From contig JAQGDQ010000086.1 of assembly GCA_030141605.1 (NCBI GenBank), positions 119,418-183,417 of the forward strand: a DNA stretch of 64,000 nt. The letters run 5' to 3'. A model generated the notes under the pieces. It was given only the letters and a program-made list of their open reading frames with translations, was not told the DNA's origin and made no database searches. Shown piece after piece: positions 10,092 through 53,088 of the stretch. The translations under genes were made by a program, and so were the position numbers. Source of the stretch: Tubiluchus corallicola (Eukaryota > Animalia > Priapulida). Every line of letters begins with the position of its first letter. The stretch's first letter is position 1.

Positions 10092-10162
10092 ATGGCCTCG
10101 CGACAAATCGTGAAAAAGATTATCCAGACTGCTAATGCAGCTGCTGCCGTCGGTCCGTACAG
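10092..10162 (+). CDS. RIDA: RIDA exon 1
   Basis: ATG...GPY, donor gtaagc. Confidence 0.9.
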
Positions 10163-12121
10163 GTAAGCATTGATGGACTTACCAACTAACAGCATGAATA
10201 CAATACTACGAGTGCAGCTTACTATAGTATAAGCTTAATTTATGGTCTTTGGAGAAATAAAAACAAGAATTTTGTGAGCATTTTACTCAAATCACTGTTA
10301 AGATTTCAAGAGTCGTAAACATAGACTCATAAAATAGTAGCGTCTTTTTGATCTGAAAGTATATTGCTGCAGTATGCAGCCCTCCATTCGGTCTCAAAGT
10401 TCTTGTATGTTTGCTACTGACGAGCCTTGCAATATGTGTAGCAGCATAATTTATATAATATGTATACACCACATATTATATATACGTGTGTTATGTATAG
10501 GATTATAAGAATCATTTATTCTATTTGAAGGTTGACGTTGTAGATTAAATTTTATTATAACAACTAAGATAGGCTTATAAAATTACTCGATATTTTTTCA
10601 GTCAAGCTGTACTTGTAGACAGGACGTTGTACATATCTGGTTGTCTAGGATTAGATGCTAAATCTGGAGTTATGGTGGAGGGTGGAGTTGTGGAGCAGAC
10701 TCACCAGGTAAGTTTTTATGGAATTTAACCCACAATCTGTTAAATTAACTCTTGCTACTATACTGTATCTTTACAAGTCAATTTTCTGGCTTTTTATGGG
10801 CTGGTGCCTAAGCTTAACTATTGTTACCTTAGCCCGTTTGGCAAATTGCAAATACGTATTTTCCATCTCCTTGGGTCTCATTTGGAGGTAACCCTATAGT
10901 TCTTGTTCTCTCTGATATGTTGTTACGTTAAGCCATTTTATCATTACCATGTCTACAGTATTTTTACGAAAAAATCTTGCAAAAAGGTCTCGTATCATTG
11001 ATTTCCAGATACTGATAGGTTTGTTGCTCCTTGATTCAGAACTGACACTTGTAAATCCGGTTTTTTTTTCAAACATCTTATCTGTGGAACTCCATTTTTG
11101 CCAGAAAGTTGCTTATCTGTTAGCTAGGTCGAAAATGCCAACAAGTATTTCCCATTGCAGTAAGCCTATTTTTGTACATATATTTGAATTTTCACTTTTC
11201 TGATATGGCTCCTTACTCTTGTGGCCACCACTGGCATTGTTCTGCTCATTTTCTTGTCTTGATCTGCTGGTGAAGTAGAGCCGTAAATTACTGGCTGCCG
11301 AGTGGCTTTTGCTTCATACTGTTTTTGAAGCTGTTAGCTACCTTGCAGCAGATACGTGGTAGAATTGTTCAAAGGTATAGTTCATTGCCCAAATGTGTGG
11401 AATAAATTCTAGATCACTGTGTGAACATGCATAATCCTACATGGGCTAAACTGATAAGTCCTAATTATCACCCAATGGCTTTTGTGATCATTTGTATACA
11501 TTTTAAAGTCATAAATGGTACATAAAAAAAATTAAACTACGTAATTATGTCGTCATAGGCACTAAAGAACATGGGAGAGGTGCTTAAGGCAGCAGGGTGT
11601 AGTTTTGAGAATGTTGTCAAAACGACCGTGCTTCTGGCTGACATCAACGATTTTGCCGCCATGAATGAAGTTTACAAGAAATATTTCACATCGTCTTTTC
11701 CTGCCAGGGCAGCATATCAAGTAGCAAACTTGCCTAAGGTATGTACTTTGGTCATTCCACAATCACGAGAGCCTCATTTGCTATTGATACTATGTACTAA
11801 TATGTCAATAACAGTTACTATCATAAATGTATGCTAACTGTATTCATAAATGAAATGTATGTATACTACAGATGTATACTGTAGTTGCGATTTTATTGTT
11901 ATAGACTTTGTATTTTGAGGAAAACTGATTTAATTCGATATGTAAGCTTTGAAGTTGGTATATAAACACAAAACATACACCCACATATGTATATGTAGTC
12001 TTGTATACATATCATTGCATATATTATTAATTTTAATTGTTTGATATTTTTCTTTTTATAGGCTGGGAGAGTTGAAATTGAAGCAATTGCAGTGACTGGG
12101 CCTTTGGAAATACAGAATTAA
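10092..12121 (+). CDS. RIDA: 2-iminobutanoate/2-iminopropanoate deaminase (RidA/UK114/HRSP12), 138 aa; join(10092..10162,10602..10707,11559..11738,12062..12121)
   Basis: Translation contains [46 protein letters not shown] and VEIEAIA, the RidA/YjgF signature with the catalytic Arg; complete ATG to TAA; AATAAA at 12663. Confidence 0.96.
10602..10707 (+). CDS. RIDA: RIDA exon 2
   Basis: tttcag/gtaagt; [16 protein letters not shown]. Confidence 0.93.
11559..11738 (+). CDS. RIDA: RIDA exon 3
   Basis: catag/gtatgt; [13 protein letters not shown]...LPK. Confidence 0.95.
12062..12121 (+). CDS. RIDA: RIDA exon 4
   Basis: tatag acceptor; [19 protein letters not shown]. Confidence 0.92.
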   Translation, partial: AGRVEIEAIAVTGPLEIQN

Positions 12122-16304: not shown

Positions 16305-16342
16305 TTATGATTTGTTGACAGGCTCTTCATTTTTTGCCTTGT
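16305..16342 (-). CDS. Last coding exon DKAKNEEPVNKS*
   Basis: ctttttgcag acceptor, phase 1, TAA. Confidence 0.7.
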
Positions 16343-19300
16343 CTGCAAAAAGGAAAGTATAACTAACAGCAGAACATTAAAAAGTTAATCAAAAGTTATT
16401 ATTTTCAACAAAATTTATGCTTGTTATGTGTTAGTCTGCACTTGTGTTAGTGACTGTAATGCAACTCACATCTATAAGTGTTATCTTAGCACTATTGTAA
16501 CTGCAGAATTCAATGCATTTTGAAATTTAACTGGTTTTAAGGATAGATAAATTGACCATTCTCAGTTTTAATCATTTTGTAAAACCTTATGGTACACAGC
16601 AATGCATTTCCAAACAGGTTTTGTAATCATCAGTTAGTCTTCATGACTTTGAAAATGTAACCAGTAGATCGACTGAGCTCATTTACTGGCATACAGAACA
16701 ATAACAAGACAGGATAACATTTAGTAAAATGTATGAAGGCCATAACAAAGAGTTATGCCAGCAATAGTAGAGGGCAATCGCAGAACAGTTTCATAGTAAC
16801 ATTTGGTGGAAAATCGTAATTGATTACTTCCGAGCCAGTATATTTAATTTAAAGTTGGCGCTCTTGTCTTTTAATTGTACTACAGAGTGTCTAAATGATC
16901 CAAAGTTGCAGAAATTTATTCCAAGATATTTACATCATTTTATAACAGTTATCTATTCGTCATTCTATATTACTCTGATGTTCTTGTTTTCTTACTTGTG
17001 GATTGATAAAATTTGGGTACATTTAAATTTTGTTAACACTTTTGTATGTATGGCAATTTTTCTTGACACACACACACAGAAATTATTTGACAAGTTTATA
17101 TTACAGATTTCAGGATACTACCCAACTTTGGTTTCGACCTTAGGAATGTCAAGAATGGCAACTTAGATTGCAAGATCCCAAATTCGGACGCCTTAGCAAT
17201 GTTTTTTACAGCGTGCATTGTCTAGCTTCTACGTATGCTGGCAAGAATCAGAATCGATGGTGCATTTAGCAGCACCAAATGTCAAATCCACAAAATGGTA
17301 AATTCTCAAAATGACTTTTGCAACTAGTGACATTTACGAAAAAGGTCTCAGCAAACTTAACGTAAAAATATCGTCCATTCACAGAAATGTGAGAAATATT
17401 GTTGATGTATAAAATCAATTCAATGTTAACAGTTATCATTCCTAAATTAATAATGTCCACAAAAATTAATGTAGTACAGTTGCACTCTGTGTTGTTGGGC
17501 ACTGGGCTGTACCATTAACCACAGAACAGACAATAACTATTGTGAATGTGAAAAGGTAAAATAAATGATAGGAATTGGTGTTATGTGAGATTTTTCTAAG
17601 TCACAAAGGACTAGACTGGATATGGAACCACATCACAAGTGTAAGGTAACGAATAATATAAAGCTGAGAGCGTGCGTACCTGGTCGCATGTTAAACTCTA
17701 CAGTGAACTCACACTCCAAAGTATGAACTGGTTCTATACATACAGCGACTGAGTCCATAGTTACGTTTGATTTCTTCTCTGGTAAGGCAACTGTTAAAGG
17801 AAAACAGTACCCAATTTTAGACCCTAGCAAAAAATGACTTAAGAAAAATATACTGAAAGTTTTCAAGAATAATTTACATTATTACGGCAGAAACCTGATT
17901 TCGTTTGTTTTCAGATGTTGAATGCTTTTGGCTATTCACACTTAAATGGATAACAGTATTGGCATCTCAGAAATATATTGCACAAACAATAGATGCTGTA
18001 GCTGATCAGCAAAACAAATCCGACCTAAAGCGTGTGCAAACTCATGGAATCACACGTTGGACCAGTAATAATCACATCATTTGAAACTCCTGACGCATAT
18101 TTTGTGTTTTAATGTCAAAATTAAAGCCATATTTCAGTTTCGTTTTTGCAAATACGCGAAATGTGATTAAAATGTTTCTGATGTCAAAAAATTTACTCCA
18201 CTTGTAACGTTATTGCTAGCTATGCCGGCCAGCTGTTAATTAAAGTTCTAAACTAATATTTGATCTTTATATGTAACAAAATGCATCGTATCGTATAGAT
18301 CATAGATGAAAAGAGGTAGGATCTGAAAAACTGGCCTGTTTTCCTTTTGCATTTAAATACTGTTTGTGTTGTAATTAATGCTACAACATTTGAATTCAGC
18401 ATTACAATAGTTGGATAATAGAAAAGCGTAGTGTAGAAACCAGTTATACAACATCTGAAAATCAAAATCACTGCGTAAGATGGTAAGTTTTAGTGCTACC
18501 TAACACAATCAAGCCAAATTTAATGGAAACATTAACAAAAAAAGGCAAATAAAAGTTTTTTTATTATTATTATTATCACATTCAGTACAATATAAAGCAC
18601 ACAGTGAAGTGAAGTGAAGTGAAAAAAGATAAAAGTGATCCATGGTGACATTTAACTGAAACAAAAAGAGAAGTTTGTGTTCTGTGGTTAATGATATCAC
18701 AGTTATCATTGTGGTTAGTGATGGTTCTGTGGTAACTGGCCTCTTATAGATTACATAAGTTGACATGATATGATACAATATTATTTTTATGAATGATCAC
18801 CAAAACTTCTAACAGCACATACATCAACAATTTTTGCCATTTTACTAACATTATTGTTTTGACTACAAACACTTAACAGAGAGCTTTTCGAATGGTCCAC
18901 ATTTCTTTACTACATCATACAATCGTATAATTATATTTTCTGTAGTTCATGTAAATTTAATGTTAAAGGAAACTACACCTCGTGTGCAAAAGTACTTCTA
19001 AATTATGACTTTAAAATGGCCAACCAATTATACCTTCAGTTTCCTTTTCTATATATTTATAACCATATAGAACAGGAGTATGACATTTTCTCCATGACTG
19101 CTAACACCTGTAACTAGCAGTTTTATTAATAACTCACCTGGTTGTGATTTTTTGATTGTTCCATCATTTACTGGTTTTGCATCTGCTGCTGACTCTTTTT
19201 GTGTTGAGTCTGCAATTTGCAGTATAGTTTGTTAACAATGCAATTCTATATAAATTCATATATTCAAGATGGAGCCTAGCTGAAAAATTACAACTTAGTA

Positions 19301-22300
19301 AACTGTTACTCAGTATTATTAAGTCTGCAAGGTAAATTAGTAAAAGGCAATAGGAAAATAACAAGTGTGTATTTTGAAATATCCTTATAATTACATAAAA
19401 AACATATCTCGAAACAGCAAACACACTTGTATAATGATTCAGTTGAATTAACAGTTGCGTCTAGTTCAGCTCAAACAATGACTTGGCTGTCAAGAGATCT
19501 CTTATTTCAATGCACCTTAAGCTAACTGGACTAATAGCAGCACTCAAATTCATGTTCTCTATCCATGTTATCTCACCTCACCCTTTATATGCAATTTATC
19601 TCAACTCAAAACAATTCAGTTAATTATTTGTCCCAATTAACATCAATTCGGGGTAACAAAAAACTAGACAGGCACTCTACTAATTAACAAAACATGTGGT
19701 CTGCACTTAGCAGCTAAACTAAACACTTAATATTTTGCTTTAATCGAATAATCCAGAGCATAAGATGAATTATGGGAATTAGAGGAATAACAATTGATAT
19801 TACTAATTAGGTAAAAAGGGTTCCTTATATGGCATACTGCCCAAAGAATGACACCTCTCCATGTCTACAATTTTTTGGAAGCAAGAGGAATCTCTAACCA
19901 GCTTGTAAATCATCAGCAGGCTTTGTCTTTGCGGGTGATGTCGGTTTGTCTTGTTCTACTTCGTCAGATGTAACTGCTTCTAGTCTATTAAAGTCAATGG
20001 TATAACTGACATAGGATGGAAGTGGGTAATTCAACTTTGAAACTTTGGTATAATGACATATGGCTGCGGTAATGTGCAAATTAACACACTGACTGAAACA
20101 TTTTAGTTTTTTATACTATTGTGAGATTAGATTTAACCTGTAGGTTCTTTTGTCTCACCTTCATCTTGCTTTGATTTTTTGTTTTCAATAGGTTCTTGTG
20201 TTCTTGTAGTATCTACCTCGGGTAAATCTTTTGTTTCACCTGCAACAAATAAGTTATTAAACTGACATTGGTGGTGGTAAAAATTTTATATTAAAGGTGA
20301 AAATTAAATACCATTCGTGTACATCAAGTAGATGTGGACAGATGTGCTCTAGACAGACACAAAATTTGCATGAGAAGTATTACCTCCCGTGCCATTCTTC
20401 GGGAAAGGGGGTTATCGTGGCGAACCAAGTGATAACAGGATGTGCTTTGCAACCAAAGTTAGGCAACACCAAAGCCAGTTAGTGAATGGTTAGTTGACTG
20501 CAGGTTCAATACTCGTTTGGTTGGTGTAGCCATTCTAATTTAAGCTATTTACCTCACACAGGGTATTGTTATACATTATAATGTGGTTGAGAGTGAGACA
20601 CCCCTATCAGTTTGATGTTTCATCTGGACGATTAGCTGTGATAGCAAGCTAGATTCTGGTCCCACAACAACTACTCTCATTAAAATAGGGCCTGCCATGG
20701 AGTGCGGGATTCCACTTAAGAAAATGTCAAGCATCTCTTATCACAGGTTGTGGGGTAAAGACCTATCTCATGCAAAATGTAAATTTAATGTGGCAAGAAT
20801 CGAGTGAGCAGATTTTGACTTGATTCACCATAGCACTTTGAATATCAGTAAAATTATAATTCAGAAATCGTTTGTTGTGTAGCAGATAACTATTTGTATG
20901 GCCTGCTACAAACAAGGAATGAAGGTGTTTAAAAATGCACGGTGGGGCAGAGGAATTGAGGAAAAGTGATGGAGTGCTATTTGGCAAATGCCCTGAAAAG
21001 CCCAATTTCAATGTTGTTTATACGAAAAATAAACATCTTCTGTACCTGCTGCACAGGTCTGTTGGTCAGTATGGTGCACAACTTACTTTAAGTTTTTTAA
21101 AGGACTGCGAACCAAGCCAACCAAAATATATAAAGAACCAATGAGAAATTACAGAAGAGTTTGGCACCACACAACAACTTGTGATCACATTTCTTTTATC
21201 GATCAACTTTCCTTTCAAAAATTTAATAAATTATGGGTCGTTCAATCAGTGTATGTTTATATTTTGCTAGACTTGATTTTCAATACTTGTCGACTCAAAA
21301 CTTGATTTGATCACCAGTTATCTGGCTTCATCTCATGCAAACACAAAAAGAAATGGCAGCATGTTTTTACAATGTTTTTTATATTGATGTCCAATCATAC
21401 GTCACCAAGGTGAAAAATTCTACAACAGGTCCAGAATTCGTTCAGTAATAACAAATTATGAAAGTAGTAAAGTACACATGAATACGAAACCATGTGTAAA
21501 GTCGAAAGTAAAAGTTGCTTCAATGATTTAACTGCAAAGAAAATACTTTCCAAGATTCAAAACTTTTCAATTAGCTAATTAAGTAGTTACTTGATGCAAT
21601 ACATTTTCAAAATTTAGTTTTCTGCTCTAACAAAATCATTTATGCCACAAAAGATTCTTTCCAGGTAACTGTATAGATTCCTCATTTTCCAGGGAAACAT
21701 TGCATTATTTAATTAGTTTTCGGTCATACCAAATATCGTAAAATTCATCTGGTACACGTTTGTCACTACAGAACCGTGCAATCTACATTTTATAAAACAA
21801 AAAATCAATCACTCCCTAATTTGAGTAATTACAACCTTTTTCTAGTTTGGAATCTGGCTGCTTTACTTCTGCGCCTTCTGATTCCACTTGTTCTGTTACT
21901 GTAAAGAGAAAACATAAACTAACAGCAAAGTTGAATGTACAAATATAGACTAAGAAAAACAGAGGCCAACAGACCACAAAAGAATATTAGACAGTTCTAC
22001 AGTAACAGCCTTAATGAATTCCTGACACAAGTTTATTAGCCACACGTTGAACAAATCCAATTCAGGACAAAGATTTTAGACTCACCGCCTTCTTGCTCAG
22101 GTTTTAAAATTCCCCGTTCTATTAAATCTTCTTTCCTTGAACGAGTAGAAATTTGCCTTTCTAAAACTGGAACAAATCCAAAATATATCATTTCTAATGC
22201 TATTTTAAATACACGTTAAAAGTAATTATTATATGACAAGGCCTTTAATTCCCATTTTGCTATTAATCCATCAGGATTCCAAATATATTGAATATTTCCT

Positions 22301-25300
22301 TCTAGCCCAAATTCTTCCACATTAAGTAAATCAACTTAATTTGCTTTGTTTGTAAATTACAAATACAAGTAAATAAATAACATTTATATTATTTAAGAGA
22401 ACTCATTTGAGAACTTATAAGAGAAACTGAGAGAAATTGAATTCTTACCTTGGATTGAGTTTTCCATAAATGCACTTTTCTGCCGTGGCACCACTAAAAC
22501 AAACCCCATACATGTTAATGTTATGGTACACACATTATAATGTTACAAAATGTAATATAGTTACTAAAAGTGATAATGAATTCAATTTATGCAAGGTTAT
22601 GAAATAATAAAAATATAGCCCAGATATACCCTTCAACTACACTTATTACAGTACAGTGTAACAAGTAGAATACTGAATTTTTATTTTCAAAAGCAAACAA
22701 ACCATGTCACGAAAAAGCAGTGCAATTTTTAAATTGTACAAGTCCATTTAACAGAGAGCATTGAAAATAATAGATATATTACACATACGCTGACAAATAA
22801 CTGACACATTTTGTTACATATCATGCAATAGCACAGCAGTAAAATACATGGTAGGTATGATTAACAGAAACAGACAGACATTCGTTTAAAATAAATATGT
22901 GTAAAATTTGTTCAGAAATACAAATATTAAAAGGTTAGTAACACAGTCAGATCGAACTAGTTTATCAACAAGAATATTGGATTAACTGGACTAACACAAA
23001 TTATGAAATTAGAAAATATTTTTTTGGAAGCTTTCAAATACATCCATTAATCAAATTACAGAAGTTTTGCATATGACCAATTAGTACAATACCTCATGAA
23101 AAACAATGTTTTATTAATTGAAAGCAGCCTTCAAGTGTGTATCATAATTCACACTGGCAAGATACACAGAGTTAATGAAGTAGTGAAGGAATAAAGATCA
23201 TGCAGCATAGTTTACAAGTGTTTTAGACTGAATAGTTAATTTGCCTATAAATAGTTGTACTGATTAAATTGCTTTATAATACATATTGCACCAGCATTCC
23301 TACATACGCATGTCAACATGCTTTCTCTACAAGAATGAACATTAGTGTTAGCAAATAGTAGCAGCAACAGTGTTTACAATTTTTTTTAATTTAATAATAA
23401 TGAAATAGCAACGGATTATATGAAGATAAACATTGATGAATTAATGCAATACAACAGGTCCTAGGAAGAAACTAGTTAGTAATCCTAGATCTAGAGGTAC
23501 CAGTCCTGTAATCACAAGTTTCTCACCTACTGGTACATCTTTGTCAACTAAATCCACAGTGTCTAGTGTGTCTTTCTGTGGTACTTTTTCAACATTATTG
23601 TTCTCTCTGTCACTGTATTGCTTATATTTGGCCAATTTTGTCACCAATGTATCATGTTTCTCAAGCACAACGTTGTTTTGACAGTTGATAATGTCAGTGC
23701 TCGTCGAAACCTTGCTATTTTCACCAGGTTTGTGATCTAGCTTGCTTCCTCTGTCACCATCACTTGTTATCAGAATATCTCGAGTACCTTGAGTTTTGTC
23801 CTCAGTAAGATCTCTTACTTGCCCACCAATCTTCAGAGTACGTGCTTTTGGGTCAACATTTTGCTTTGAGCTGTCGTCTGCTGCCTGCTTAGATGCTTTT
23901 TTAGCAGCAATCCATTCAGACAAATGTTTCAGAGATGGGTGAAAATTTTCTGTTGCCTCACTGTTTCTCAAACTTGTTGATTCATCGCAAAATTGATTGG
24001 TATCTTCACTCTTCTTTCCTTTTTGAAAATTCTCTGCTTCTTCTACTAAACAAGAACTGACTGCTCGAGTGTTTTCAGCAACACTGTGCTCCAAGTGTTG
24101 GCTAATGATTTTACCACTATCAGCGATCTGTCTGATACTGCTAAACTGGTTTTCCTTCTCGTGTTTCTCAAAAGTTTCGTTTTGTCCTGTGGCTTGATTT
24201 TCTTCCATTACAGTGGTTTTCAGAAATGAGTTTGTGTGATTAGTAAGTAAGCCGTTTGTGATAAGTTCTGGGCACGTGCTCAGCTTGACATCATCGCTTA
24301 CCAAATCATAGTTAACCTGTTCTTCCATGCCATTACACTCTGTTTGACGACCTGAAGAATCATCAAATTTACTATCCATTTTGATGCCAGTATCACCTTC
24401 AATGGCTGTATTTTCTTTGTGTATGACACATGCCTCATATATATCAGCATTATTATCTACAAGAGACAAAGCATGATGAGATCCAGAATCAACAGTAGTA
24501 TTTTCATTGATGCTAGCAGCATTCACAAGAAAAGTTTCCCTGTGATTGTCTTTCTCATCACATTGATCAACATTTCCATCGACATCATCGTGTAGAGGCA
24601 ACATGTGTTCTGCAAAAGAAGTACAAGCGTGAGTATCACCAACTGTATGTGGTTTTGTGTTACTTGAATCGGAAAAGTTGTGCATTGCAGAAAATTGCAT
24701 AATATCTTCACTATCAGCAGCTGCTGGAGGTGGCTGCTTTTTGATTTCACACTGATTCCTTACAGAAATATTTTTCAAGTTATTTGATTTAGACAAGCTG
24801 TCATCAATGTTTGAAGTTGCAACGTCAGAAAGTGCAGCATCGGCATGTTTTAAGTCTTTAGCAATACTTTGTTCCAAGTGTCGGGACTCATATGTTACCT
24901 CCACATTATTATCTGCAAGAGCCAAAGTGTGATAAATGGCAGAATCAGTGATAGGATTTTTATTTTCTATGAGGCTAAGATCATTCAGATGAGGAATAGT
25001 TTCTCTATGATTATCTTTTTCATTATGTTGATCAGCACCTTCATCAACATCATTGTATACAGGCACATACTGTTCTACAAAAGAGTGACAAGCATAACTA
25101 TCACCAGATGTATGTGGTGCTATGTTACTGGTATCGAATGAGCTGCTCTGTGCATGCAGCTGCACAATTCCTTCATCATCAGCAGATGCTGGAGGTGACT
25201 GAGTTACAATTTCATGTTGATTCCTATCTTCAGAAAATATGTTTTTGAAGCTATTTGTGTTACACATGCTGCCGTTCATGTTTGACTTTGCAGTAACAGT

Positions 25301-28300
25301 AAGTACAGTGTCAGTATTTTCCAAAGCTTCTGCAACTCTCTGTTCTGAGTGTAGGCAATCATATGTATCAGCATTATGATCTGCAGGAGACAAACTGTGG
25401 CAAGAGCCAGAGTCAGTAGTAGGATTTTGATTTTCATTGTTCAAAGGCAACACAGTTTCTTTATCGGCATTATCATGCATAGGCACGTAATGGTCTGCAA
25501 AAGAAGGACAAGCATGATTATCACCAGCTGCATGTGGTGTCGTAGTACTGAAATCTGGACAGCTGTGCTGTGTGGAAAGTTGCAGATCATCTTCTTCACC
25601 AGCAGAAGCTGGAGGCGACTGAGTTCTGACTTCACACTGATTTTGTTCCAAGTGTAGGTACTCATACGTTCTAGCGCTATTATCTACAAGAGACAATGCG
25701 TGACAGGAACCAGAGTCAGTTATAATATTTTCGTTGACGCTAGAAGCATTCAGAGGTGTAACAGTTTCTCTATGATTATCTTTCTCATCACAATGGCCAG
25801 CATCAGCATCAACATCAATATTTGCAGGCATATATTGCTCTACAAAAGAAATACAAGCATCACTATTATCAGCTGAATGTGGTGTTGTACTACTGAAGTT
25901 GAGAGAGCTGTGCTGTACAGAATGTTGCACAATATCTGCAATATCAGCAGCTGCCGTAGGTGACTGAATTCTAATTTCACACTGATTCCCAACTTCACTA
26001 AACATACTTTTCAAGCTACTTGTATTAGACATGTTGTCATTCATGTTTGATGTTGTAATGTTAATAGATGCAGCATCAGAATTTGTCATCTCCATCTTTT
26101 CGCCGCCCCTAGAGAACCCAGGAGGACTGACTGACATTCCATCCTTCAACAATTGTTCTTCTTTATCTGGCATCTCTACATTTTTGACATCTTCAGAAAC
26201 ATTGCTACAGCTTCCAGTGCTAGTCTTGTCATTAGTTGTGTCTGAATATGATTTTGGAAAATTAATAGGACCAGTTTTGCACTGCTGAGCTGTTATATCA
26301 CTTTCGTTTTGATCCTCACGTAACAACGAACTTTCAAGTTCTGTTGATACAACTTTTGTGGTAAACAAAACGCTTTTTCCAACCTTCTCGCTTTCTTCAA
26401 AGAGTTCCTTCGTTTCTTCCATTGTAATATATGTAGCTGACACTGCCAAATTTGATTCTTCATTTAACTTTTCTGCATCACAAGAATGAATTTCTTCGAA
26501 AGGCATATTTTCCAAATGGAGTTGCTGTTTAGGGGCAGCTGCTGATATAGCATCATTTTCAGTAAATTTTTTTACAAACAAATTTGTTGTGGATGAACAA
26601 TCCAAATCTGTTTTAACTCTGGTATCAAGCTGTCTTATGTTAATTTCCTCTGATTTTGCATCATGCTGATCACTATCATCATGGACAGAAAATCTCTCAC
26701 ACAATGTAGCTGACTCATCCTTTGCAATAACATTGTCATGATCAGTACCAAATTCTCTTTCAACATCAGCAGGTGTGCTCACTACACGCATCCGGGAAGA
26801 ATTTGTCTTGATTACGGCTTCAGGTTTCGGTTCAGACAAGTGACGAGAAGACTTCAAGCAGATGGGAGATTTTCTAGTTTTAGCAGCAATTTTAGCTGTT
26901 CTGTCAGGAATACAAACTTCAAGTACTTCACTGTGATTACCTTCAGAACTTTCGCTCTCGCTGACACTTTCGCTGCCCAGCACTTCTATGTTTGTTATTA
27001 CTGGTACCGAAAGGTCTACTTTAAACTGTCTTGAACCAATCTGTATTATATGCCGTGTTATTTCAGGTGTACCAGATCGAACAGCTATAGCACACACATC
27101 AGATGCAATTTCAGGCATCGGATTACCGGCACTCACTGAATGCCTGGTTTTGAACGTATGTCGATGTGGCGGGTGTGCTGCAGCTAGACTTGTTTTCGGC
27201 TTTTCTCCATATTCTGCAACAGCAATGCACACAGCCGGTTTTGGTTCAATGTCACACGTATAATAAACAACATTTTCCTCAAGTGCAATATTGTCATTAG
27301 GATAGTCACTGCGATCTACATCTGATGTGAATACTATTTTCTTTTCTTCATCATTACTATTATGTGGATTAGCTGACCAATCTGGTTTTTCTGAAAAGTC
27401 GGAAACATGAAACTGATGATCAGAAGAAGAAAATGACTGCTCCATGTATGCCTCTTGTTCACATTCAGAAGTGTAGTAAACAACTGGTGACTGGTTTTCT
27501 GTAACACCATCTTCAATACCATCTTGTTGACTCCATTCGTGAAAATTTTGCCCATTAGTAGCTTCATCTGTTAGTTCCATAATCAGATCATAATTTTCGT
27601 TCTGGTTTGCTTCATTCTTCGAAACACTTGCTGGATTTTCATCTGATGTTCCGCTATCATCCATAATCAGATCATAATTTTCGTTCTGGTTTGCTTCATT
27701 CTTCGAAACACTTGCTGGATTTTCATCTGATGTTCCGCTATCATCCATAATCAGATCATAATTTTCGTTCTGGTTTGCTTCATTCTTCGAAACACTTGCT
27801 GGATTTTCATCTGATGTTCCGCTATCATCCATAATCAGATCATAATTTTCGTTCTGGTTTGCTTCATTCTTCGAAACACTTGCTGGATTTTCATCTGATG
27901 TTCCGCTATCGCCACAAGGGTATTGAAGACTGGAGGAAGGACTAACTCTAGAATTTCTAAATAGTTTTGACTGTTCCCAAGCTGATTCATGGTGGGCAGG
28001 ATCACCAAAGAGAAATTTAACTGGGTTTATAATAGCGGAGCTGCTCAAGCCAGTATCGACTTCAGATTCGTGTTTATTCCGACGACCAAAGATATTTTTT
28101 ACAAAAACATGTTTGTTGTCTTCTCTGCACTCCACATAAACAGCTGCAGATTGCTGAAAGTCTGCAACATAAAGTTAATTAGTAACAATTTAAGAGTACC
28201 TAAAATATAATCATAATTTCGTAATAAAGGTACATTGCTGCCACACCTGAAGCTCAACAAAAAGAACGTTGCATGATTAATAAATTATGGCCATGAATAC

Positions 28301-31300
28301 AAAATACCAAGTGCTATATGGTAACTAACAGAGGAGCTTTCGTGCACAAAGCTGCCTAACTAAATTCTCAAACTGCATAGAAACATATTCAGAATGTGCG
28401 ACAACTAAAGCAGATTTCATGCAGTCTGAATCTACTGTCACCTGCCACATCTGCTTCAGATGCGTCAATCAAATCGTGACGTAATCTATCAATCGACACA
28501 CATTCTGAATGCTTACAAAAATGTCTTTAACGGTTTTCTAACTTCCTTAACATGAAGTAAGGTGTTAATTATGTTCACAGCAGTTAAACAATTAGATTTC
28601 TGGGGCAGACTATGAAAAATGAGATTTAATTTAAGGAAAAATAACTTGCATTTCTTGTTTACATTGAAACACATAATGATTGGTACTACTAGAAAACAAT
28701 TTTACTATAGTTATTGTATTAATTAAATGTTAAATGCATCATAGCCAACAAAAATTTATCAATCTGACTTACCACATCACATAAACATTTATATCTAAAC
28801 ATAAAATTTCTTGCTTTTCTAGGTACATGCAATCATTTGTTTGTTTTTTTATCATTCTCAAATAAAATTGTCACTACAGATTTACTTTAATAATAAGTTT
28901 CGCAGACCTCTCAACCCTCGGAGAAAGCAAATCTGGAGATTTTTCAGAAAACTGGATATTCCTCAAAAAACTTGGAGATTCTACATCGCAAATATAAAGC
29001 TAGATTATTTTTCACTATGGCACTGAAACTTTTTCATGAAAAAAAGCAAAACAAATGTAGTTAAATATTAAGATAGTTTTGTAATAACTTGCTAGTTGAA
29101 AACAGCACAAATAATATTGAACGTTTGCTAAGTTTTACTGTTGATCACGAGTGTTTTCGATGCAAGACGTGCTTGTTAAAGAGGCTGCTTGGATGTGGCA
29201 GCACTCTAAACTGATTCACAGAAGAAAAATTTTCTATTATTTAGTTTTACTCAGTATTATCAAAATTTATTGACTTTTGTATTAACTGTGATAAAGTAAA
29301 GATGTACAGTGAAACAATAAGAAATTAGTTAATACTGTGAGACTCACGGCAATACCGTAAGAGTTGAGAAGTCTACATTCCATAAGATTGCTACATGATA
29401 CATTAACAATTTTAAACAAAACACCACAAACGTTTGACATTATTTTTCAGAAATCTGACAATGCAAGTTAGTCGTCCAAACAAAACTAGAATGATATATT
29501 TATACAGTTTATTCATGTTTTTCAAAAAGATGCTTTTAATTGCACTTTAGAGTAAATTTTGATTTCTTTCAAGACAGAATGGAAGTATCACATTCAATTA
29601 TCTATATGATAATTCAAAAACCACTAACTTAATTAATACACTGGAGCAGGGGCGCAGCCAGGTTCTAAAGTTAGAGGGAGCAAGCGCATAAAAAAGGTGC
29701 TATGACACATACCAAATAATTTTTAATGCATTGATTATACATGTTAATTTTGTGCTTAACATGAATCCACAAGGAAGATAAACTTTTAAAGGAAATACAT
29801 AATTGTTATTTTGCATAACAAACACAAAATCATACGTATAATAAAACGTAAAGACACTGAAACTTGCCTTTGTAAAATATAATTGACAGTAGGTTTACTA
29901 CTAGACAATCGTTTGGCAAAATATAATATAACAATTCGATTTGGGGCAATTTGATCCTTCGTTCAATCAGTCAACCTTGACAAATGAGTTGCATAAATGC
30001 ACTCTCATTTCAAAACATGGGAGGCAGGTTAGTCAAATAAGTAATGATTCCATTATTGAAAAGGCACCAATTTTGAAAAATTTGCTCTGATGGAGCAGTT
30101 GCTCTCCTTGCTCCCCTGTTAGCTATACACCACTGCACTGAACTCTAAACTAAATTAATATAATGCTTTGACTTTTATCTTTTTAGTCAAAATTGGCCAT
30201 ACTAGAAAAAAGTTTCTGTTGTGACTAACAATCAAACTCAGACATGCAGTGGCATAGCTAATAGGGGAGCAAGGGGAGCAACTACTCTCCCTAGCACATT
30301 TTCAAACAGCTGGCACCTTTTCAAAATTTTTTTAACCCTTTGGTTTACTTGTACAATAAAAGTCAAATACTTTTTTATTTTTTAATTGATTATTTGAAAG
30401 AATTTTCTGAGCCTTTACTTTATTCATGTATTTTCCCCTAAAACTATTGTGTTTACAAAATTAAAATGTGTAATAAATGCATTAAAAATTATTTGACATG
30501 TATCACGAAGCCTTTTTTATGTGCTTGCTCCCCCTAACTTTAGAACCCGACTACTGGCTACCTCTCTGCAGACATTGTTATTTAATATAAAATTTTCATT
30601 TTTGTTTCTTTCTTAGCGTTCTTTCAAAGTTGTCAACAAGTTTATTGCGCATAAAAAATGAAATAGAGGACATGTAGCTTAATTTTGAATTGTTCTCTTA
30701 ATCAACTTCAAACAAAATATAGACACAAATTATATGCAAAGATTTAGAAAGACTGACATTTTCTCCAAGACTGCACTTACAAAATAGTCTAAATTGCCTA
30801 ACATAGGGATAATTAAAACATTACAAGTGGTAACTGTGACAACAACTGGAAAATGTTCCAGAAGGAAGAAGGCAAGCTTTGCGCTGCACATTTTGCATTT
30901 TCGCCAGACACATTACATACTTACTGGCTAAGCAAACAATAGCACAATACATTATTAATGCCAATCCATCAAATAAGGCTTTTAGTCAGTTAACAAGGAA
31001 AGCTATGTCACTGTAAAGGCATCTATACCACAAGTTAGCTTAAATTAGTAACATAAGTTGATAGTTTGCAGTTCCTTTTGTTATCATTATTGCAACAAGT
31101 TTACGCCACCATATCCATTCGAGAATTTTGCTTCTGTCAAGAGTTGCAAGAAAATTTCGAGCAATAGCGTTCTAACATTTCCTCACATTGAACATTACGA
31201 GATTAAATGGAGAAGAATGTAGTTTATATTGATTCGGTGTTGTCGACTCACGTCAGCCTTACTATATATATATATGCAATAACTTTAGAGTATTAGTCGT

Positions 31301-34298
31301 TGGATCTGATAACAGGATTCTGAAGGTTTTCAAATACAATCAGAAGCCTTTCAATCTTTCAAAGTGTAAAATGAGATTTTGCAAACAGGGAAACATAACC
31401 AACAAAAACTATCTTAATATATTAAATTACTGCATTTAATCGCATCTGTGGCAAGGAAACCATTTAATGCTGTCAAAACAAAATGATCATTGAGTTTAAT
31501 AGTCAAACAATATTCAAATGCAAAACCTTTAACTGTGTTAGTGCAATTCCTATTTCTAAGGAATTACAGTACCTGGTTGCTCAGGTTTTGCAGGCTCCTC
31601 GGGTGATTTCACAGCTTCTTCATCATCATTGCTTCCTCGCAATGTTTTAGTGGAGTCTATGTCTTCTGTAGCTGGCTGTTTAAGCTATAGAAGACCATAA
31701 AGCATTAACTTTAATGGCTGACTGTTAGTTTCAGTTGGCGCTAATCAAGTAAGCAATAGTATTCTTCCAACAGTTTAGTATTAGGCTACGGACAAGTTTT
31801 GTATCTATCCGAATGCTCTAAAAATCACTTTGCTTGTGTAAATTTCTTCAGTTTCATTTTATAATTATCATGATTCATAATCAAACGTACCTAAGATGTC
31901 ACAATAAATATATGAACAATTTATGATTAAAATGCAGAACTGCGATATTACACAATTTTATCAGTGTGCAATACACTTGATAATACAAATAAATACTGTA
32001 TTGTTTGATGTTAGTCAAGTAGTAATTAATTTGATGCTTACTGCAGCAACTTCCAGTACTTCAGCTGGACTAGCAACACCTTTTGTCTCGTCTGAAAAGA
32101 ATTTATATTGAGCATTGAAAGATTTATAACTAAAAATAGAAACATAATTTGCACAGTATGCAATTAACTGAAAATTACGACTTTTTGTGACTCTGTAAAT
32201 CAATAGAAAATTATGGTTTATGTTAATATTTTTGTAAAGTGTGGAATGTGGATATTGTTATAACCTGAATAACAGCACAGTCAATTTAAAGCCTTAATAG
32301 AAATTATGGAACAAATGCTGCTGATTTTTTATCAATCAATATGTTTGGCAAATCACAACAATGAAGACATAGCAACTAAACAAATGATGCAAATGACCTA
32401 GCTTTTGCTGCAAGGCATATTTATTCAAAAGGACATTGCTTGTTATACACATTTACATGCAGTGCCAATAACATAACCCAATAACAATCAATAATTATTG
32501 ACTGCAACTAAGTATACGCGTAGTCAAACCATTTCTAAAGTCATAACATGAGCCTGCTAATGGTACGCGAAAGTGTAACAAAGAAAAATAATGTTCTGTC
32601 AATATTTATAGAGCCAGGTGTAATCACTCTTAAGTAAGACCCAACCTGGTTACCATGGGAACATAATATGTTTGTACACTGACTGACATAAAGACATACC
32701 ACAAACTAATATAAAAAAATAGTTTCCATTTTGGAGTGTTTTTGTAACAATTTCAGACAGTAAATTTAGCTTCAACAATACTTAAATAAAATCTTGATTT
32801 CGTCATTTCTATTTTATCTGAATTCATGAAAAAAAGCATAACACTGCTGTCAAGACTAGGTTAATGGAGAACAATAATTATTATGTTTAGGACTGCCATA
32901 ATTATGCAATATATAAGCCTAACTAACTTAAACCTTTATGAAAAAGAATGCGCCCAGCAGAGGATGATGCAAAAACAGCAGTGAAGTTCCAGTTGCAATA
33001 TTAGTAATAATGCACACCATTCCGCAACAAAACTGTTACACAGCAACATTCCCATAACCAACTTGAAATTTATTTGCTGAATTCAAATCATTAATCAACT
33101 CACTGTTAAATCAATACTTTAATACGTATGATTCTGAATCATGTTGAGTGCCAATTTGCAAACAAAACAGCACCAAGTTTAGGAAAATTCAGGTGTATCC
33201 AACTATTAGCACACTAGCTTTCAAGCATGGCATGAATTTCATTTTTCCAATTTATAGATAATATTTACCAAAAAAAGTACGGCATTAAGAGTTTGATATT
33301 AAAGCAAAACTGATATCAGTATTTCATAACAGTTTCATCATGTGATATGTTGATCGTCCTATGCACTCACAGAGCTCTATAACTATGAAAAAGGTATAAC
33401 TTCCCTGCACAAACTAGGCATGGACAAGAGTAGGCTGGTTTCTAACAATTGCACCTGCAGCTCAAATGGAAATCTTTCAAATGAAATAAATTAGATTATT
33501 AGAAAGTTTGGTATTCAACTCTCAGCTTAATTTTTTTGATTCCTTAGACAGTAAGGAAAGCTGGTTACTGTATTATAATTTTAAAAATAAAATGAGTGCA
33601 AACAGCTCGCGATAAAATTGACATTTCATCATTTCAAGACAGAGAATAGTGGTCCTGTAACAGCTAGCAAATTAGCAACATTATCAGTAAAGAAAACAAA
33701 TGCTAAGCAGCAGTAATTAATTGTGCTTAATAATTACTGGATATATATGAGCAAATATTAATGGGGTCAGCAGTTAACATACATTACTAACAACAATGGC
33801 CTTGTAGCATAACGCTAATGCACTTTTCACAGGCCCTTCGTGTTTGAAAATATTTGTAATACAGGAACATTCTTAATTATAATTTCTTGATAAACAGTAT
33901 TTTAATAGTGTAATATAATAGAGTATACTCTAATATTACTTTAATGAGGAATGAGGATGTCAAGCTACGTTACAGACAGTTCAATAATTTTGAATAAACA
34001 CAATGATCTACTAAATAAGAATAAACAGTATGCGAAAAAAAGTCCACCTTGACCTCAGGAAACTGGCAATATACCATATTTGGTAATATAATCAAAAGTA
34101 ACTATGCAAATAAATGTAAAGCAAAAAATTACTATTTAAATGATTACCAGCAGTCTTTGGCACATCATTTTGTCCTGCTTTTTGTTGTTCTTTGGGAACT
34201 TGTGCTGACTCGCCAGCAGTCGTACCAGGTGCTTGAACTGCATCTTTAGCCGATTCCTGATCGTTGGATTTCTTTTTAGAGCTAGAAGCACAGCCCAT
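16305..34298 (-). CDS. Uncharacterised N-acylated, acidic/disordered protein with one RPEL motif; complement join of 34148..34298, 32042..32091, 31573..31684, [23527..28161], 22449..22493, 22086..22166, 21836..21898, 20138..20239, 19899..19979, 19138..19209, [17680..17790], 16305..16342
   Basis: All exons have GT-AG boundaries and chain in phase from MGCASSSKKK to DKAKNEEPVNKS*; about 264 aa without the bracketed exons and about 1809 aa with the giant exon. Confidence 0.78.
17680..17790 (-). CDS. Possible cassette exon VALPEKKSNVTMDSVAVC...NMRP
   Basis: tttcctttaacag/gtacgc, 111 nt, open in phase 1-1; composition differs from neighbouring exons. Confidence 0.4.
19138..19209 (-). CDS. Exon DSTQKESAADAKPVNDGTIKKSQP
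   Basis: ttgcag/gtgagt, 72 nt, phase 1-1. Confidence 0.75.
19899..19979 (-). CDS. Exon EAVTSDEVEQDKPTSPAKTKPADDLQA
   Basis: Phase 1-1, 81 nt, donor gttaga; acceptor could be 6 nt further in. Confidence 0.65.
20138..20239 (-). CDS. Exon GETKDLPEVDTT...EPT (alternative donor would end it at 20159)
   Basis: ttgcag acceptor; two phase-1 donors (gtgaga, gttaaa). Confidence 0.7.
21836..21898 (-). CDS. Exon VTEQVESEGAEVKQPDSKLEK
   Basis: ttacag/gttgta, 63 nt, phase 1-1. Confidence 0.7.
22086..22166 (-). CDS. RPEL-motif exon VLERQISTRSRKEDLIERGILKPEQEG
   Basis: ttccag/gtgagt, 81 nt; fits the RPEL consensus LxxxIxxRxxxxxLxxRGIL. Confidence 0.82.
22449..22493 (-). CDS. Exon VVPRQKSAFMENSIQ
   Basis: ttttag/gtaaga, 45 nt, phase 1-1. 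Confidence 0.72.
23527..28161 (-). CDS. Giant 4635-nt exon (1545 codons), acidic and Ser/Asn/His-rich, repeat-containing
   Basis: Covers nearly all of the 1564-aa ORF 23441..28135; ttgcag acceptor is in frame with the upstream exon; donor gtgaga at 23526; phase 1-1. Confidence 0.82.
24435..26085 (-). repeat. Four degenerate ~110-155-aa protein repeats starting NQ(C/H)E
   Basis: Recurring NQCE..QSPP, PH.....AC.SF, EKDNHRET, DSGSCH.LSL, HLEQ. Confidence 0.85.
27576..27910 (-). repeat. Perfect 84-bp coding tandem repeat x4 (DDSGTSDENPASVSKNEANQNENYDLIM)
   Basis: Identical units seen in both DNA and ORF translation. Confidence 0.95.
29647..30135 (+). mobile_element. hAT-type non-autonomous element, copy 1
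   Basis: TIRs caggggcgcagc ... gctatacaccactg; flanks cactggag/cactgaac (6/8 TSD). Confidence 0.7.
30247..30568 (-). mobile_element. hAT-type non-autonomous element, copy 2 (inverted, shorter)
   Basis: Both ends are reverse complements of copy 1; flanks cagacatg/cagacatt (7/8 TSD). Confidence 0.75.
31573..31684 (-). CDS. Exon LKQPATEDIDST...EPAKPEQP
   Basis: ctatag/gtactg, phase 0-1. Confidence 0.78.
32042..32091 (-). CDS. Exon DETKGVASPAEVLEVAA
   Basis: ttttcag/gtaagc, phase 1-0. Confidence 0.75.
32649..32662. promoter_or_regulatory. RFX X-box GTTACCATGGGAAC in intron 1 of the MGCASS gene
   Basis: Fits the GTHNYY-AT-RRNAAC consensus. Confidence 0.45.
34148..34298 (-). CDS. First coding exon MGCASSSKKKSNDQESAK...VPKTA
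   Basis: aaaATGG start context, MGCxxS myristoylation/palmitoylation motif, donor gtaatc, phase 1. Confidence 0.82.
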
Positions 34299-34527
34299 TT
34301 TATCAGTTCACCGGAAAACAAAAATAAAGAGGTACCATAATTGATTGGATGGCATAGTAAAGTTTCCTTCGAGAGATTACAACACATTAATAAGTAGCAT
34401 TACGTAGTGTAAAGTCTTTAAACTTCTGCTGGCAAAATTTACTTGATAGTATTGCGAGGACTCAATAACTGCGTTGCAAAACAGTAGAAAAACCTGCAGT
34501 GCAATTGTTTGTAGCCGCGCTCTATCG

Positions 34528-34542
34528 GTTGCCCGTAGCAAC
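34528..34542. promoter_or_regulatory. RFX X-box GTTGCC-CGT-AGCAAC
   Basis: Fits GTNRCC(N0-3)RGYAAC, 230 bp upstream of the MGCASS ATG; extra half-site GTTGCTA about 10 bp away. Confidence 0.6.

Positions 34543-36113: not shown

Positions 36114-36117
<4 letters not shown>

Positions 36118-36143
<26 letters not shown>
36118..36143. repeat. (TA)n microsatellite
   Basis: Seen directly. Confidence 0.85.
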
Positions 36144-36149
<6 letters not shown>

Positions 36150-41944: not shown

Positions 41945-41960
41945 CTACGGTCGATGAAAC
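41945..41960 (-). CDS. PHACTR: PHACTR terminal exon (FHRP*)
   Basis: tttcag acceptor; conserved RFHRP C-terminus. Confidence 0.92.
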
Positions 41961-50900: not shown

Positions 50901-51580
50901 TTTCTGAACATACTCAAGGGAACTCACACAATAACGCTGAGTTCTTTTCTTGCTAATATGATTATAGCCTATAGTCGCTGTATTTTGACTTACAAAGTCT
51001 AACAAACGTGCAGGGAGAAAACAGAAACTGCAAACACAGAGAAGAAAACAGATAATACGATGCCCCATGTGGCAAAAAATGAAAAAACAGGCTCTTATGA
51101 AACAGAGCGTGTTTGACCGTCACATCTATATCATTTGTCCTCAAATAAATCCCGAAACAGAGTTCAATGGACCCAGTTGTTCCAGTTTTTCTGCTGCCTA
51201 TGACGAATGACTTATATTACTTCTTAGCTTATATTACACTAAACTTACGTAAATAATTATTGTAAAAAACACAAGTCTGATTTACTAAAATCTCTGCAAA
51301 AATTTTAAGAAATCAAAGTGACTTTTCAGAATGAATGTTTTCTGGAAAACTCATAAGTGGCAGGCTTACTCGAGTTTAGAACAACTGGACAACCATGAAA
51401 ATCACCTACCCATGCCATTTCGCTGTCCTGCCGTCATCTCTTTGGAAGAATTTTCTGGTGTCTGGTCACCATTCTGGTGATCGTCCGATGTCTCCAACAT
51501 CTGCAGAGGCATCGGAACGGGCGTGTCAGTGATGACATCACCATTGGCTGCGTAAGCGTCATCGGCATCTTTCACCGATT
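41945..51580 (-). CDS. PHACTR: Phosphatase and actin regulator (PHACTR), 5'-partial; complement join of 51410..51580, 50144..50371, 48152..48309, 46556..46761, 45694..45884, 44146..44358, 43425..43486, 42878..43015, 42260..42336, 41945..41960
   Basis: Three C-terminal RPEL repeats plus the PP1-binding tail [10 protein letters not shown]...[28 protein letters not shown]...HLTRFHRP*; all exons phase-consistent. Confidence 0.93.
42260..42336 (-). CDS. PHACTR: PHACTR exon [25 protein letters not shown]
   Basis: ttacag/gtacta. Confidence 0.94.
42878..43015 (-). CDS. PHACTR: PHACTR exon [24 protein letters not shown]...PKDK
   Basis: ttctag/gtgaaa; last RPEL and PP1-docking segment. Confidence 0.95.
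43425..43486 (-). CDS. PHACTR: PHACTR exon [21 protein letters not shown]
   Basis: ttgcag/gtttgc, phase 1-0. Confidence 0.88.
44146..44358 (-). CDS. PHACTR: PHACTR exon with two RPEL repeats (KVARKDSL...[14 protein letters not shown])
   Basis: atttag/gtaagt. Confidence 0.95.
45694..45884 (-). CDS. PHACTR: PHACTR exon VKPEVPAKP...SDNKEN...acidic tract
   Basis: atttag/gtatgt, phase 2-1. Confidence 0.88.
46556..46761 (-). CDS. PHACTR: PHACTR exon [19 protein letters not shown]...GDASP
   Basis: tcctag/gtgaga, phase 0-2. Confidence 0.85.
47146..47559. mobile_element. Foldback/MITE-like long inverted repeat: 165-bp arms (47146-47310, 47395-47559), 84-bp spacer
   Basis: Arms are near-perfect reverse complements; lies in a PHACTR intron. 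Confidence 0.85.
48152..48309 (-). CDS. PHACTR: PHACTR exon [12 protein letters not shown]...SLIEQ
   Basis: tttcag/gtaatt, phase 1-0. Confidence 0.8.
50144..50371 (-). CDS. PHACTR: PHACTR exon [11 protein letters not shown]...SSIVE
   Basis: ccacag/gtaagt, phase 1-1. Confidence 0.78.
51410..51580 (-). CDS. PHACTR: PHACTR exon [15 protein letters not shown]...QRNGM
   Basis: tttcag/gtaggt, phase 1-1. Confidence 0.8.
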
Positions 51581-53003: not shown

Positions 53004-53088
53004 CGGGCTCATAGTCAATCGACTGCTCTCTGTCTTCTGAATGCCTGCGACAACGTTTCCAAAACTGCAACACCCAACTTCCAAACAT
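53004..53088 (-). CDS. PHACTR: Candidate alternative first coding exon of PHACTR (MFGSWVLQFWKRCRRHSEDREQSIDYEP)
   Basis: ATG plus phase-1 donor gtaggt compatible with the exon at 51580; CRE/E-box cluster about 300 bp upstream. Confidence 0.55.

What the first reader, a model, noticed from the sequence alone, without database searches (positions are those of the whole stretch)
16305..34542. Unrecognised lipid-anchored, single-RPEL gene next to PHACTR: candidate membrane or ciliary G-actin binder
Seen: a phase-consistent minus-strand gene of 11-12 exons. It starts MGCASSSKKK, is otherwise acidic and disordered, and contains one RPEL motif (LERQISTRSRKEDLIERGIL). Established: MGCxxS followed by a basic patch directs N-myristoylation and Cys palmitoylation and is common in ciliary/flagellar membrane proteins. 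RPEL motifs bind G-actin in the MRTF, PHACTR and ArhGAP12 families. I know of no animal family that combines a dual-acylation N-terminus with a lone RPEL and has no PP1-binding, SAP or GAP domain. Inference: a membrane-tethered G-actin sensor or buffer, possibly competing with the neighbouring PHACTR.
Basis: partly seen in the sequence, partly recalled or inferred. Interest (0 to 1): 0.8.

Follow-up and report, generated by a model that had tools for sequence, protein, structure and literature searches.

The report
Membrane-anchored offshoot of PHACTR's actin motif
An invertebrate gene next to the actin regulator PHACTR carries a copy of PHACTR's front-end actin-monomer-binding motif inside an acidic protein with a predicted lipid anchor, so it likely arose by partial duplication of PHACTR and would hold actin monomers at the membrane without the phosphatase output.

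Summary
The gene model holds on sequence evidence. Twelve minus-strand GT-AG exons (34298-16305) join in frame, giving 264, 301 or 1,846 aa. The motif passes Pfam's RPEL cut-off (30.3 bits against 23).

The motif is not a generic RPEL. It is the PHACTR N-terminal type: class profiles score it 37 bits against 3 or less, and it falls in that tree clade at 100/100. It sits on an 81-nt phase-1 exon whose borders match vertebrate PHACTR's, after an exon resembling the end of PHACTR's membrane/NLS exon. PHACTR lies directly upstream on the same strand. Best reading: a partial tandem duplicate that swapped PHACTR's basic-hydrophobic anchor for acylation and lost the triple RPEL and PP1 site, leaving a membrane G-actin tether.

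Not shown: the splice joins (no RNA laid on this gene), actin binding, lipidation, and any homologue. Nothing supports a ciliary role. The neighbour has no N-terminal RPEL within the window, but its locus probably extends beyond it, so gene fission is open.

Side lead: the gene is tail-to-tail with RIDA, as human myristoylated ERICH5 is recalled to be. New variant of a known kind; interest 0.5.

The parts
34148..34298 (-). Coding exon 1: ATG, Met-Gly-Cys-x-x-Ser plus three lysines (predicted myristoylation, palmitoylation and basic patch); ends phase 1
32042..32091 (-). Exon 2, phase 1 to 0
31573..31684 (-). Exon 3, phase 0 to 1, acidic and proline-rich
23527..28161 (-). 4,635-nt phase 1-1 exon (1,544 codons), skippable in frame; four perfect 84-nt repeats and four degenerate 115-155-aa units
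22449..22493 (-). 45-nt phase 1-1 exon; its last 12 codons resemble, in register, the end of PHACTR's N-terminal (Nt) exon, without the basic-tryptophan membrane/NLS motif
22086..22166 (-). 81-nt phase 1-1 exon encoding the single RPEL motif, of PHACTR N-terminal type
21836..21898 (-). 63-nt phase 1-1 acidic exon
20138..20239 (-). 102-nt phase 1-1 acidic exon
19899..19979 (-). 81-nt phase 1-1 exon; acceptor weak and its exact position uncertain
19138..19209 (-). 72-nt phase 1-1 exon; acceptor middling, donor strong
17680..17790 (-). 111-nt phase 1-1 exon, more hydrophobic, strong splice sites; optional in the model
16305..16342 (-). Last coding exon with TAA; AATAAA at 16221 and 16207
34443..34542 (-).
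   Evidence: unverified
41945..53012 (-). Neighbouring PHACTR, likely parent: 11 exons, 490 aa, triple RPEL and conserved C-terminus; no Nt or N-terminal RPEL exon inside the window
10092..12121 (+). RIDA/HRSP12 gene, tail-to-tail with the gene studied, stops about 4.2 kb apart (context for the ERICH5 lead)

Best explanation
The gene carries a PHACTR N-terminal-type RPEL motif on its own 81-nt exon, likely arose by partial tandem duplication of the adjacent PHACTR, and is predicted to make an acylated, disordered membrane protein that would tether one G-actin. Step 1 (shown in sequence, joins inferred): the exons splice into short (264/301 aa) and long (about 1,800 aa) forms. Step 2 (predicted from established NMT rules): Gly2 is myristoylated and Cys3 palmitoylated, with three lysines helping, which gives a constitutive plasma-membrane anchor in place of PHACTR's basic-hydrophobic patch. 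Step 3 (inferred from motif conservation): the RPEL at residues 121-142 of the short form binds a G-actin monomer. Step 4 (inferred): with no triple RPEL, PP1 site or NLS it has no PHACTR-type output, so it would act as a local monomer tether or buffer at the cortex. The optional 1,544-residue exon between anchor and motif would set how far from the membrane the actin is held.
For: Motif class: profiles built from the homologues give 37.0 bits for the N-terminal RPEL against 3.2, 1.8 and 1.9 for C-terminal repeats 1-3. Mean identity is 12.8 of 22 to 23 distinct N-type motifs against 6.3-9.1 for the C-types. In a 101-row, 24-column tree it lies inside the N-type clade, 100/100. The best PDB match is the Phactr1 peptide of 4B1U/4B1V, 21.0 bits against at most 15.7 for MRTF chains. 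It keeps 8 of 9 positions invariant in the 23 N-type motifs, including the core Arg; the ninth is Val to Ile. Exon borders: human Phactr3's Nt (aa 1-52) is one exon and the RPEL starts right after it (PMC4236165), matching the intron at 22448-22167. Annotated eel PHACTR1 proteins diverge right after motif residue 26, where this exon ends. The preceding exon's end matches the Nt end in register: 4 of 252 other 12-mers and 57 of 5,000 shuffles score as high. PHACTR is adjacent on the same strand. Met-Gly first exons with a Cys-Cys pair are joined to the homologous PHACTR exon in a related transcriptome and in two octopus isoforms, so acylation-type starts already occur in PHACTR. Big exon: 1,544 open codons against at most 154 in 200 shuffles; none of 6 variants from a second DNA set makes a stop; its diverged repeats stay stop-free in only 13-59 of 2,000 neutral simulations.
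Against: No RNA shows any join of this gene. No homologue with this layout was found, so there is no cross-species conservation of exons or motif. The motif's branch is long (0.63 against a median of 0.048), and a position that is basic in 23 of 23 N-type motifs is Gln here, which may mean relaxed function. No DNA similarity remains between the two genes beyond one 49-nt non-exonic match, and no protein similarity lies wholly outside the motif region. The 3' exon border matches vertebrate PHACTR1, but molluscan isoforms splice about 8 residues later, and this species' own N-terminal RPEL exon was not seen. Actin binding and lipidation are untested.
Confidence: 0.6

Rival explanations
1. PHACTR fission by duplication and reciprocal loss: the upstream copy kept the triple RPEL and PP1 site and lost its N-terminal RPEL, and the downstream copy kept only the N-terminal module. 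The two genes are then the halves of one ancestral PHACTR in permuted order.
For: The window's PHACTR is a complete 490-aa frame without Nt or N-terminal RPEL. A scan of 3,517 six-frame segments finds the N-type motif only at the orphan exon (E 3e-9, next 1.8) and no Nt (best E 0.31). A related transcript contig runs from a short first exon straight into exon 51580.
Against: Octopus has the same internal-promoter isoform alongside full-length forms (P0008 against P0010/P0011). The relative's first exon is not in the window, so the locus probably continues beyond 64000, where the N-terminal exons may lie. No genome was available to look.
Confidence: 0.2
2. The RPEL is a decaying relic. The protein works as an acidic, disordered, acylated membrane scaffold of the MARCKS/BASP1/ERICH5 style and does not bind actin through this motif.
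For: Long branch and loss of one conserved basic residue. About 90% of the short form is low-complexity sequence, and the big exon's repeats drift neutrally at the amino-acid level (26 synonymous against 88 non-synonymous single changes).
Against: 8 of 9 invariant positions are kept while the flanks have lost all likeness to PHACTR. The motif exceeds Pfam's cut-off.
Confidence: 0.15
3. The gene is the invertebrate orthologue of vertebrate ERICH5 (C8orf47), held beside RIDA since the bilaterian ancestor; ERICH5 would then be an old PHACTR offshoot. This is compatible with the best explanation's mechanism but gives it a much older origin.
For: The gene is tail-to-tail with RIDA here. Human ERICH5 and RIDA/HRSP12 lie in one 1-Mb, eight-gene block at 8q22 (PMC5386118; also PMC7954304). 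ERICH5 is a proven NMT substrate (PMC8689648), its first ten residues match 6 of 10 here, and it has two differentially used isoforms (PMC13589402). Direct adjacency and convergent orientation in human are recalled, not shown by a call.
Against: Met-Gly-Cys starts are shared by unrelated acylated proteins (RP2, RFTN2). No exon frame hit any Pfam family suggesting ERICH5. No ERICH5 sequence could be fetched for alignment. The motif groups, weakly (87/76), with chelicerate PHACTR motifs rather than outside the protostome-vertebrate split. The comparison was made after the fact.
Confidence: 0.15
4. The exons are the real 5' part of the PHACTR transcription unit, misplaced by an assembly error or joined by trans-splicing, and not a separate gene.
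For: The RPEL exon's donor and the PHACTR acceptors at 51580 and 50371 are all phase 1. High-copy repeats lie between the genes at about 34.8-37.8 kb, and no listed contig bridges them.
Against: The gene has its own six downstream exons, stop and poly(A) signals. It lacks the Nt core present in 35 of 54 homologues examined. Restoring the usual order would need two false joins. None of the 4 related RNA contigs laid on the PHACTR side was also laid on this gene's exons.
Confidence: 0.06

Closest known systems
PHACTR1-4 N-terminal module (Nt plus N-terminal RPEL; PDB 4B1U/4B1V; PMC4236165, PMC7599070)
   Same: Same motif class, matching exon borders, remnant of the Nt end; a membrane-targeting element upstream of one RPEL.
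   Different: No basic-tryptophan membrane/NLS patch, no C-terminal triple RPEL, no PP1-binding tail; the anchor is predicted to be acyl chains about 115 or 1,660 residues upstream.
ERICH5 / C8orf47 (human 8q22; PMC8689648)
   Same: Met-Gly-Cys-x-Ser-Ser start, glutamate-rich, alternative isoforms, near RIDA.
   Different: No RPEL known to me in ERICH5 (recalled, untested); no sequence homology tested beyond ten residues.
MRTF and RPEL-rhoGAP (ArhGAP12 family) G-actin sensors
   Same: RPEL motif that binds G-actin.
   Different: Weaker motif match; no SAP, GAP or other effector domain detected.
MARCKS / BASP1 / GAP-43 (recalled)
   Same: Acylated N-terminus, acidic low-complexity chain, one short interaction motif, cortical actin role: a works-like analogy.
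   Different: Their effector or IQ motifs are unrelated to RPEL; no homology is claimed.

Membership tests
RPEL motif proteins (Pfam PF02755) | RPEL match above the curated cut-off with the core Arg | tested here: met
   30.3 bits against 23; core Arg kept
RPEL motif proteins (Pfam PF02755) | Binds G-actin | not testable with these tools
PHACTR family | N-terminal RPEL motif | tested here: met
PHACTR family | Basic-hydrophobic Nt membrane/NLS motif before the RPEL | tested here: not met
   Nt profile finds nothing in the gene; only the Nt end survives
PHACTR family | C-terminal triple RPEL repeat | tested here: not met
   One RPEL only in the gene span
PHACTR family | C-terminal PP1-binding domain | tested here: not met
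   No similarity to PHACTR C-termini and no RVxF-like motif in the 264-aa form; two loose pattern matches in the big exon
ERICH5 | Myristoylation-type Met-Gly-Cys N-terminus and acidic composition | tested here: met
   6 of 10 first residues identical; 21.5% D+E; generic features
ERICH5 | Sequence homology along the protein | tested here: inconclusive
   No Pfam hit in 9 exon frames apart from RPEL; no ERICH5 sequence available to align
ERICH5 | Conserved adjacency to RIDA across taxa | tested here: inconclusive
   Adjacent here; same 8q22 block in human; intermediate taxa not testable
Ciliary dual-acylated proteins | Ciliary localisation or a specific targeting signal | not testable with these tools
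   The N-terminal pattern is shared with non-ciliary proteins

The most novel reading that the evidence does not exclude
The gene is an ancient PHACTR offshoot and the invertebrate orthologue of the uncharacterised human myristoylated protein ERICH5, kept tail-to-tail with RIDA across bilaterians. It would define an overlooked class of lipid-anchored, effector-less RPEL proteins that hold G-actin at membranes, with a giant cassette exon acting as an adjustable tether.
Probability: 0.15. Interest if true: 0.8.

Novelty: new variant of a known kind. Interest (0 to 1): 0.5.

Why it matters
The known animal RPEL proteins couple G-actin sensing to an output: transcription, PP1 or a RhoGAP. A protein with only a lipid anchor and one RPEL would be a pure monomer tether, and a natural test of what PHACTR's poorly understood N-terminal RPEL does alone. 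It also shows a new gene built from one PHACTR exon module, with one type of membrane anchor exchanged for another. If the RIDA linkage reflects orthology, it would give human ERICH5 an origin and a testable actin connection. If the gene is confined to this lineage, it is a neat but local case.

Tried and rejected
No genome is held for this window, so the region upstream of 64000 could not be searched.

RNA: no RNA holder was listed. Run X1 is genomic DNA with short contigs. Run X2 gave spliced contigs on PHACTR, but on this gene only one 52-nt repeat piece; that blank is not evidence on expression.

Homologue searches: the RPEL exon frame gave 0 of 12 candidates at E up to 10 among proteins of 105-2,000 aa. 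The PHACTR exon 50369-50145 gave 0 of 68. A 30-residue motif query against 1.84 billion representatives gave 1 hit, P0055, a PHACTR; such a short query has little power. The Atlas gave an uninformative 0.77 hit for exon 1 and generic RPEL clusters at 0.89-0.90 for the motif frame.

Literature: RPEL+myristoylation+Phactr 0 papers; RPEL+myristoyl 4 and PHACTR2+myristoyl 3, seen as listings only, none on such a protein by title or abstract start; RPEL+evolution+G-actin+invertebrate 5, listings only; Phactr1+RPEL-N+actin+affinity 0. The library lacks most subscription papers; the Phactr1 RPEL structure paper (PMID 23041370) is not held, so the actin-contact positions are recalled.

Earlier findings: none near this place, by sequence, by words or in relatives.

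The acceptor at 19984 breaks the frame and was rejected for 19979. A candidate exon near 28501-28442 was not placed in the model. No structure or complex prediction was run.
Full report
OBSERVATION. The minus strand carries an ATG at 34298 that opens MGCASSSKKK, and one RPEL-like motif at 22.1 kb; the other RPEL-like motifs in the window belong to a PHACTR gene at 42-45 kb. Twelve AG/GT-bounded exons join in frame to a TAA at 16305. Leaving out phase 1-1 cassettes gives 264 aa (10 exons), 301 aa (11) or 1,846 aa (12). With matrices trained on 14 donors and 15 acceptors of the neighbouring genes, 9 of 11 acceptors fall in the top 7% of AGs and 10 of 11 donors in the top 8% of GTs in the span; the acceptors at 19979 and 19209 do not. 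Of 20 blindly listed open phase-1 cassettes, 14 lie on modelled small exons, 3 in the big exon and 3 in introns. The RPEL exon scores 30.3 bits against Pfam's 23; the other 8 exon frames scanned reach no cut-off. No RNA tests it: no RNA holder was listed, and neither laid run shows an exon join on this gene.

THE LARGE EXON. Exon 28161-23527 has 1,544 open codons, against at most 154 in 200 shuffles, with strong phase-1 sites; of 6 variants listed from run X1, one is silent, five are missense and none is a stop. It holds four perfect 84-nt repeats and four units 71-78% alike in DNA whose amino acids drift about neutrally. The repeat region stays stop-free in only 13 (at 13% divergence) or 59 (at 8%) of 2,000 neutral simulations. 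I infer a translated spacer. It lies between anchor and motif, moving the RPEL from residue 121 to 1,666.

WHICH RPEL. A search with the neighbour's C-terminal exon returned 54 PHACTR proteins of 149 candidates. Of these 54, 42 hit the orphan exon by tblastn at E up to 10, the best through an N-terminal motif. Sorted by class, the orphan motif averages 12.8 of 22 identities to 23 N-type motifs and 6.3-9.1 to the three C-types, and shares 9-10 with its own neighbour's C-terminal repeats. Class profiles give 37.0 bits against 3.2, 1.8 and 1.9. In a tree of 101 distinct motifs (24 columns, P0055 left out, rough bootstrap) it sits in the N-type clade at 100/100, weakly beside mite and spider motifs, on a long branch. 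Its best solved relative is the Phactr1 peptide of 4B1U. It keeps 8 of the 9 invariant N-type positions, including the core Arg, but has Gln at a position that is basic in all 23.

EXON HOMOLOGY. PMC4236165 (parts 1-2 of 4 read) states that Phactr3's Nt, aa 1-52, is encoded by one exon, that its basic-tryptophan stretch targets the plasma membrane, and its Nt-deletion primer starts at the RPEL. The orphan has an intron at this point. The 12 residues before it match the end of Nt in register (4 of 252 other windows, 57 of 5,000 shuffles as high), while the membrane/NLS core is gone. Annotated eel PHACTR1 proteins diverge right after motif residue 26, where the orphan's 81-nt exon ends; octopus isoforms splice about 8 residues later. 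Outside this region no protein likeness to PHACTR remains, and the only DNA match is a 49-nt non-exonic piece, so the event is not recent.

THE NEIGHBOUR. PHACTR at 53012-41945 reads as 11 exons and 490 aa with no N-terminal module. Spliced contigs of a related form in run X2 show five internal joins at or within a base or two of my model; 7 further rows were not displayed. No Nt or second N-type motif occurs in 3,517 six-frame segments. This does not prove loss. Octopus makes the same short form from an internal first exon beside full-length forms. The X2 contig starts with 101 nt not found in the stretch laid; the 30 nt shown read in frame as a Met-Gly start with a Cys-Cys pair (read by hand) and match nothing in the window. 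The locus therefore probably runs past 64000. The octopus short forms P0010 and P0011 also begin Met-Gly and contain Cys-Cys, so acylation-type starts recur in PHACTR itself.

MECHANISM. Shown: frame, motif class, exon borders, absence of other domains. Predicted from established rules: Gly2 myristoylation and Cys3 palmitoylation. Inferred: one G-actin bound at the motif. In Phactr1, G-actin at the N-terminal RPEL blocks importin binding to the adjoining import signal, and the Nt sequences target Phactr3/4 to membranes (PMC8629116 and PMC7599070, passages). The orphan has lost that gated element and gained a distant, constitutive anchor, so it has no evident output. The simplest role is a cortical monomer tether or buffer whose reach is set by splicing of the large exon. 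An indirect effect on PHACTR-PP1 through local G-actin is possible but would need high abundance. Nothing points to cilia.

ERICH5 LEAD. RIDA (10092-12121, plus strand) faces the orphan tail-to-tail. Human ERICH5/C8orf47 and RIDA/HRSP12 share an eight-gene block at 8q22 (PMC5386118, one table passage; PMC7954304, passages and supplement 6; 16 of its 26 supplements were not searched). Direct convergent adjacency is my recall. ERICH5 is N-myristoylated (PMC8689648, passages), and its first ten residues match 6 of 10 here, but RP2 and RFTN2 start similarly (supplement 2). It has two differentially used isoforms (PMC13589402, passages), and PMC13036854 (passages) reports no mechanistic study in its cancer setting. 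I could not align ERICH5, so this stays a lead at about 0.15.

KNOWN OR NEW. It is not a PHACTR: three of four defining features fail. It is an RPEL protein by profile. Searches found no protein with this layout and no paper on one (listings only), but these searches are weak for short motifs and for subscription journals. The host is an unidentified invertebrate; unchecked notes on the same genome suggest a non-arthropod with some genes shared with priapulids, and another giant exon.

VERDICT. Real gene, about 0.9; PHACTR-derived motif exon, about 0.85; functional actin binding, about 0.75; full best explanation, 0.6. New variant of a known kind, interest 0.5.

Noticed in passing
window 51580-51410 and run X2 record 11; proteins P0010, P0011: PHACTR short isoforms lacking the N-terminal RPEL begin with Met-Gly first exons carrying a Cys-Cys pair, in a related transcriptome and in octopus, joined in phase 1 to the homologous exon. 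Lipid-anchored PHACTR-PP1 isoforms may be a wider protostome feature.
   Followed up: partly
window 34312-34311 (minus): A good pyrimidine tract 13 nt before the ATG ends in GG, not AG. Four upstream ATGs lie in the presumed intron, and run X1 differs at 34385 within one of them. It could be a variant, an assembly error, a non-canonical acceptor or a nearer start site.
   Followed up: partly
window 28161-23527 (minus): 4.6-kb cassette exon with four perfect 84-nt repeats (27910-27576) and four degenerate His/Cys/Asp-rich units; an unchecked note reports a 19.6-kb exon in IQGAP of the same genome.
   Followed up: partly
window 44358-44146 (minus): The first C-terminal RPEL of this PHACTR has Ser after the core Arg where 81 of the C-type motifs examined have Pro; the close relative P0001 shares it.
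   Followed up: no
window 52388-52373 and 55863-55839 (minus): Two further short Met-Gly-Cys or Met-Gly-x-x-Cys frames end at phase-1 donor-like sites upstream of PHACTR exons; possible alternative first exons.
   Followed up: no
window about 1000-7700 and 10092-12121 (plus): An NRBP-like pseudokinase gene (name recalled from its exon translations; Pfam gave only a weak kinase hit) followed by RIDA.
   Followed up: partly
window 29600-30600 and 34800-37800: High-copy repeats (X1 depth 200-1,600 against about 5), the first with opposite-strand joints suggesting an inverted-repeat element; a long GA microsatellite lies at about 59280-59540.
   Followed up: no
window about 28501-28442 (minus): A short open stretch with a fair donor just upstream of the large exon; a possible extra cassette, acceptor not resolved.
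   Followed up: no
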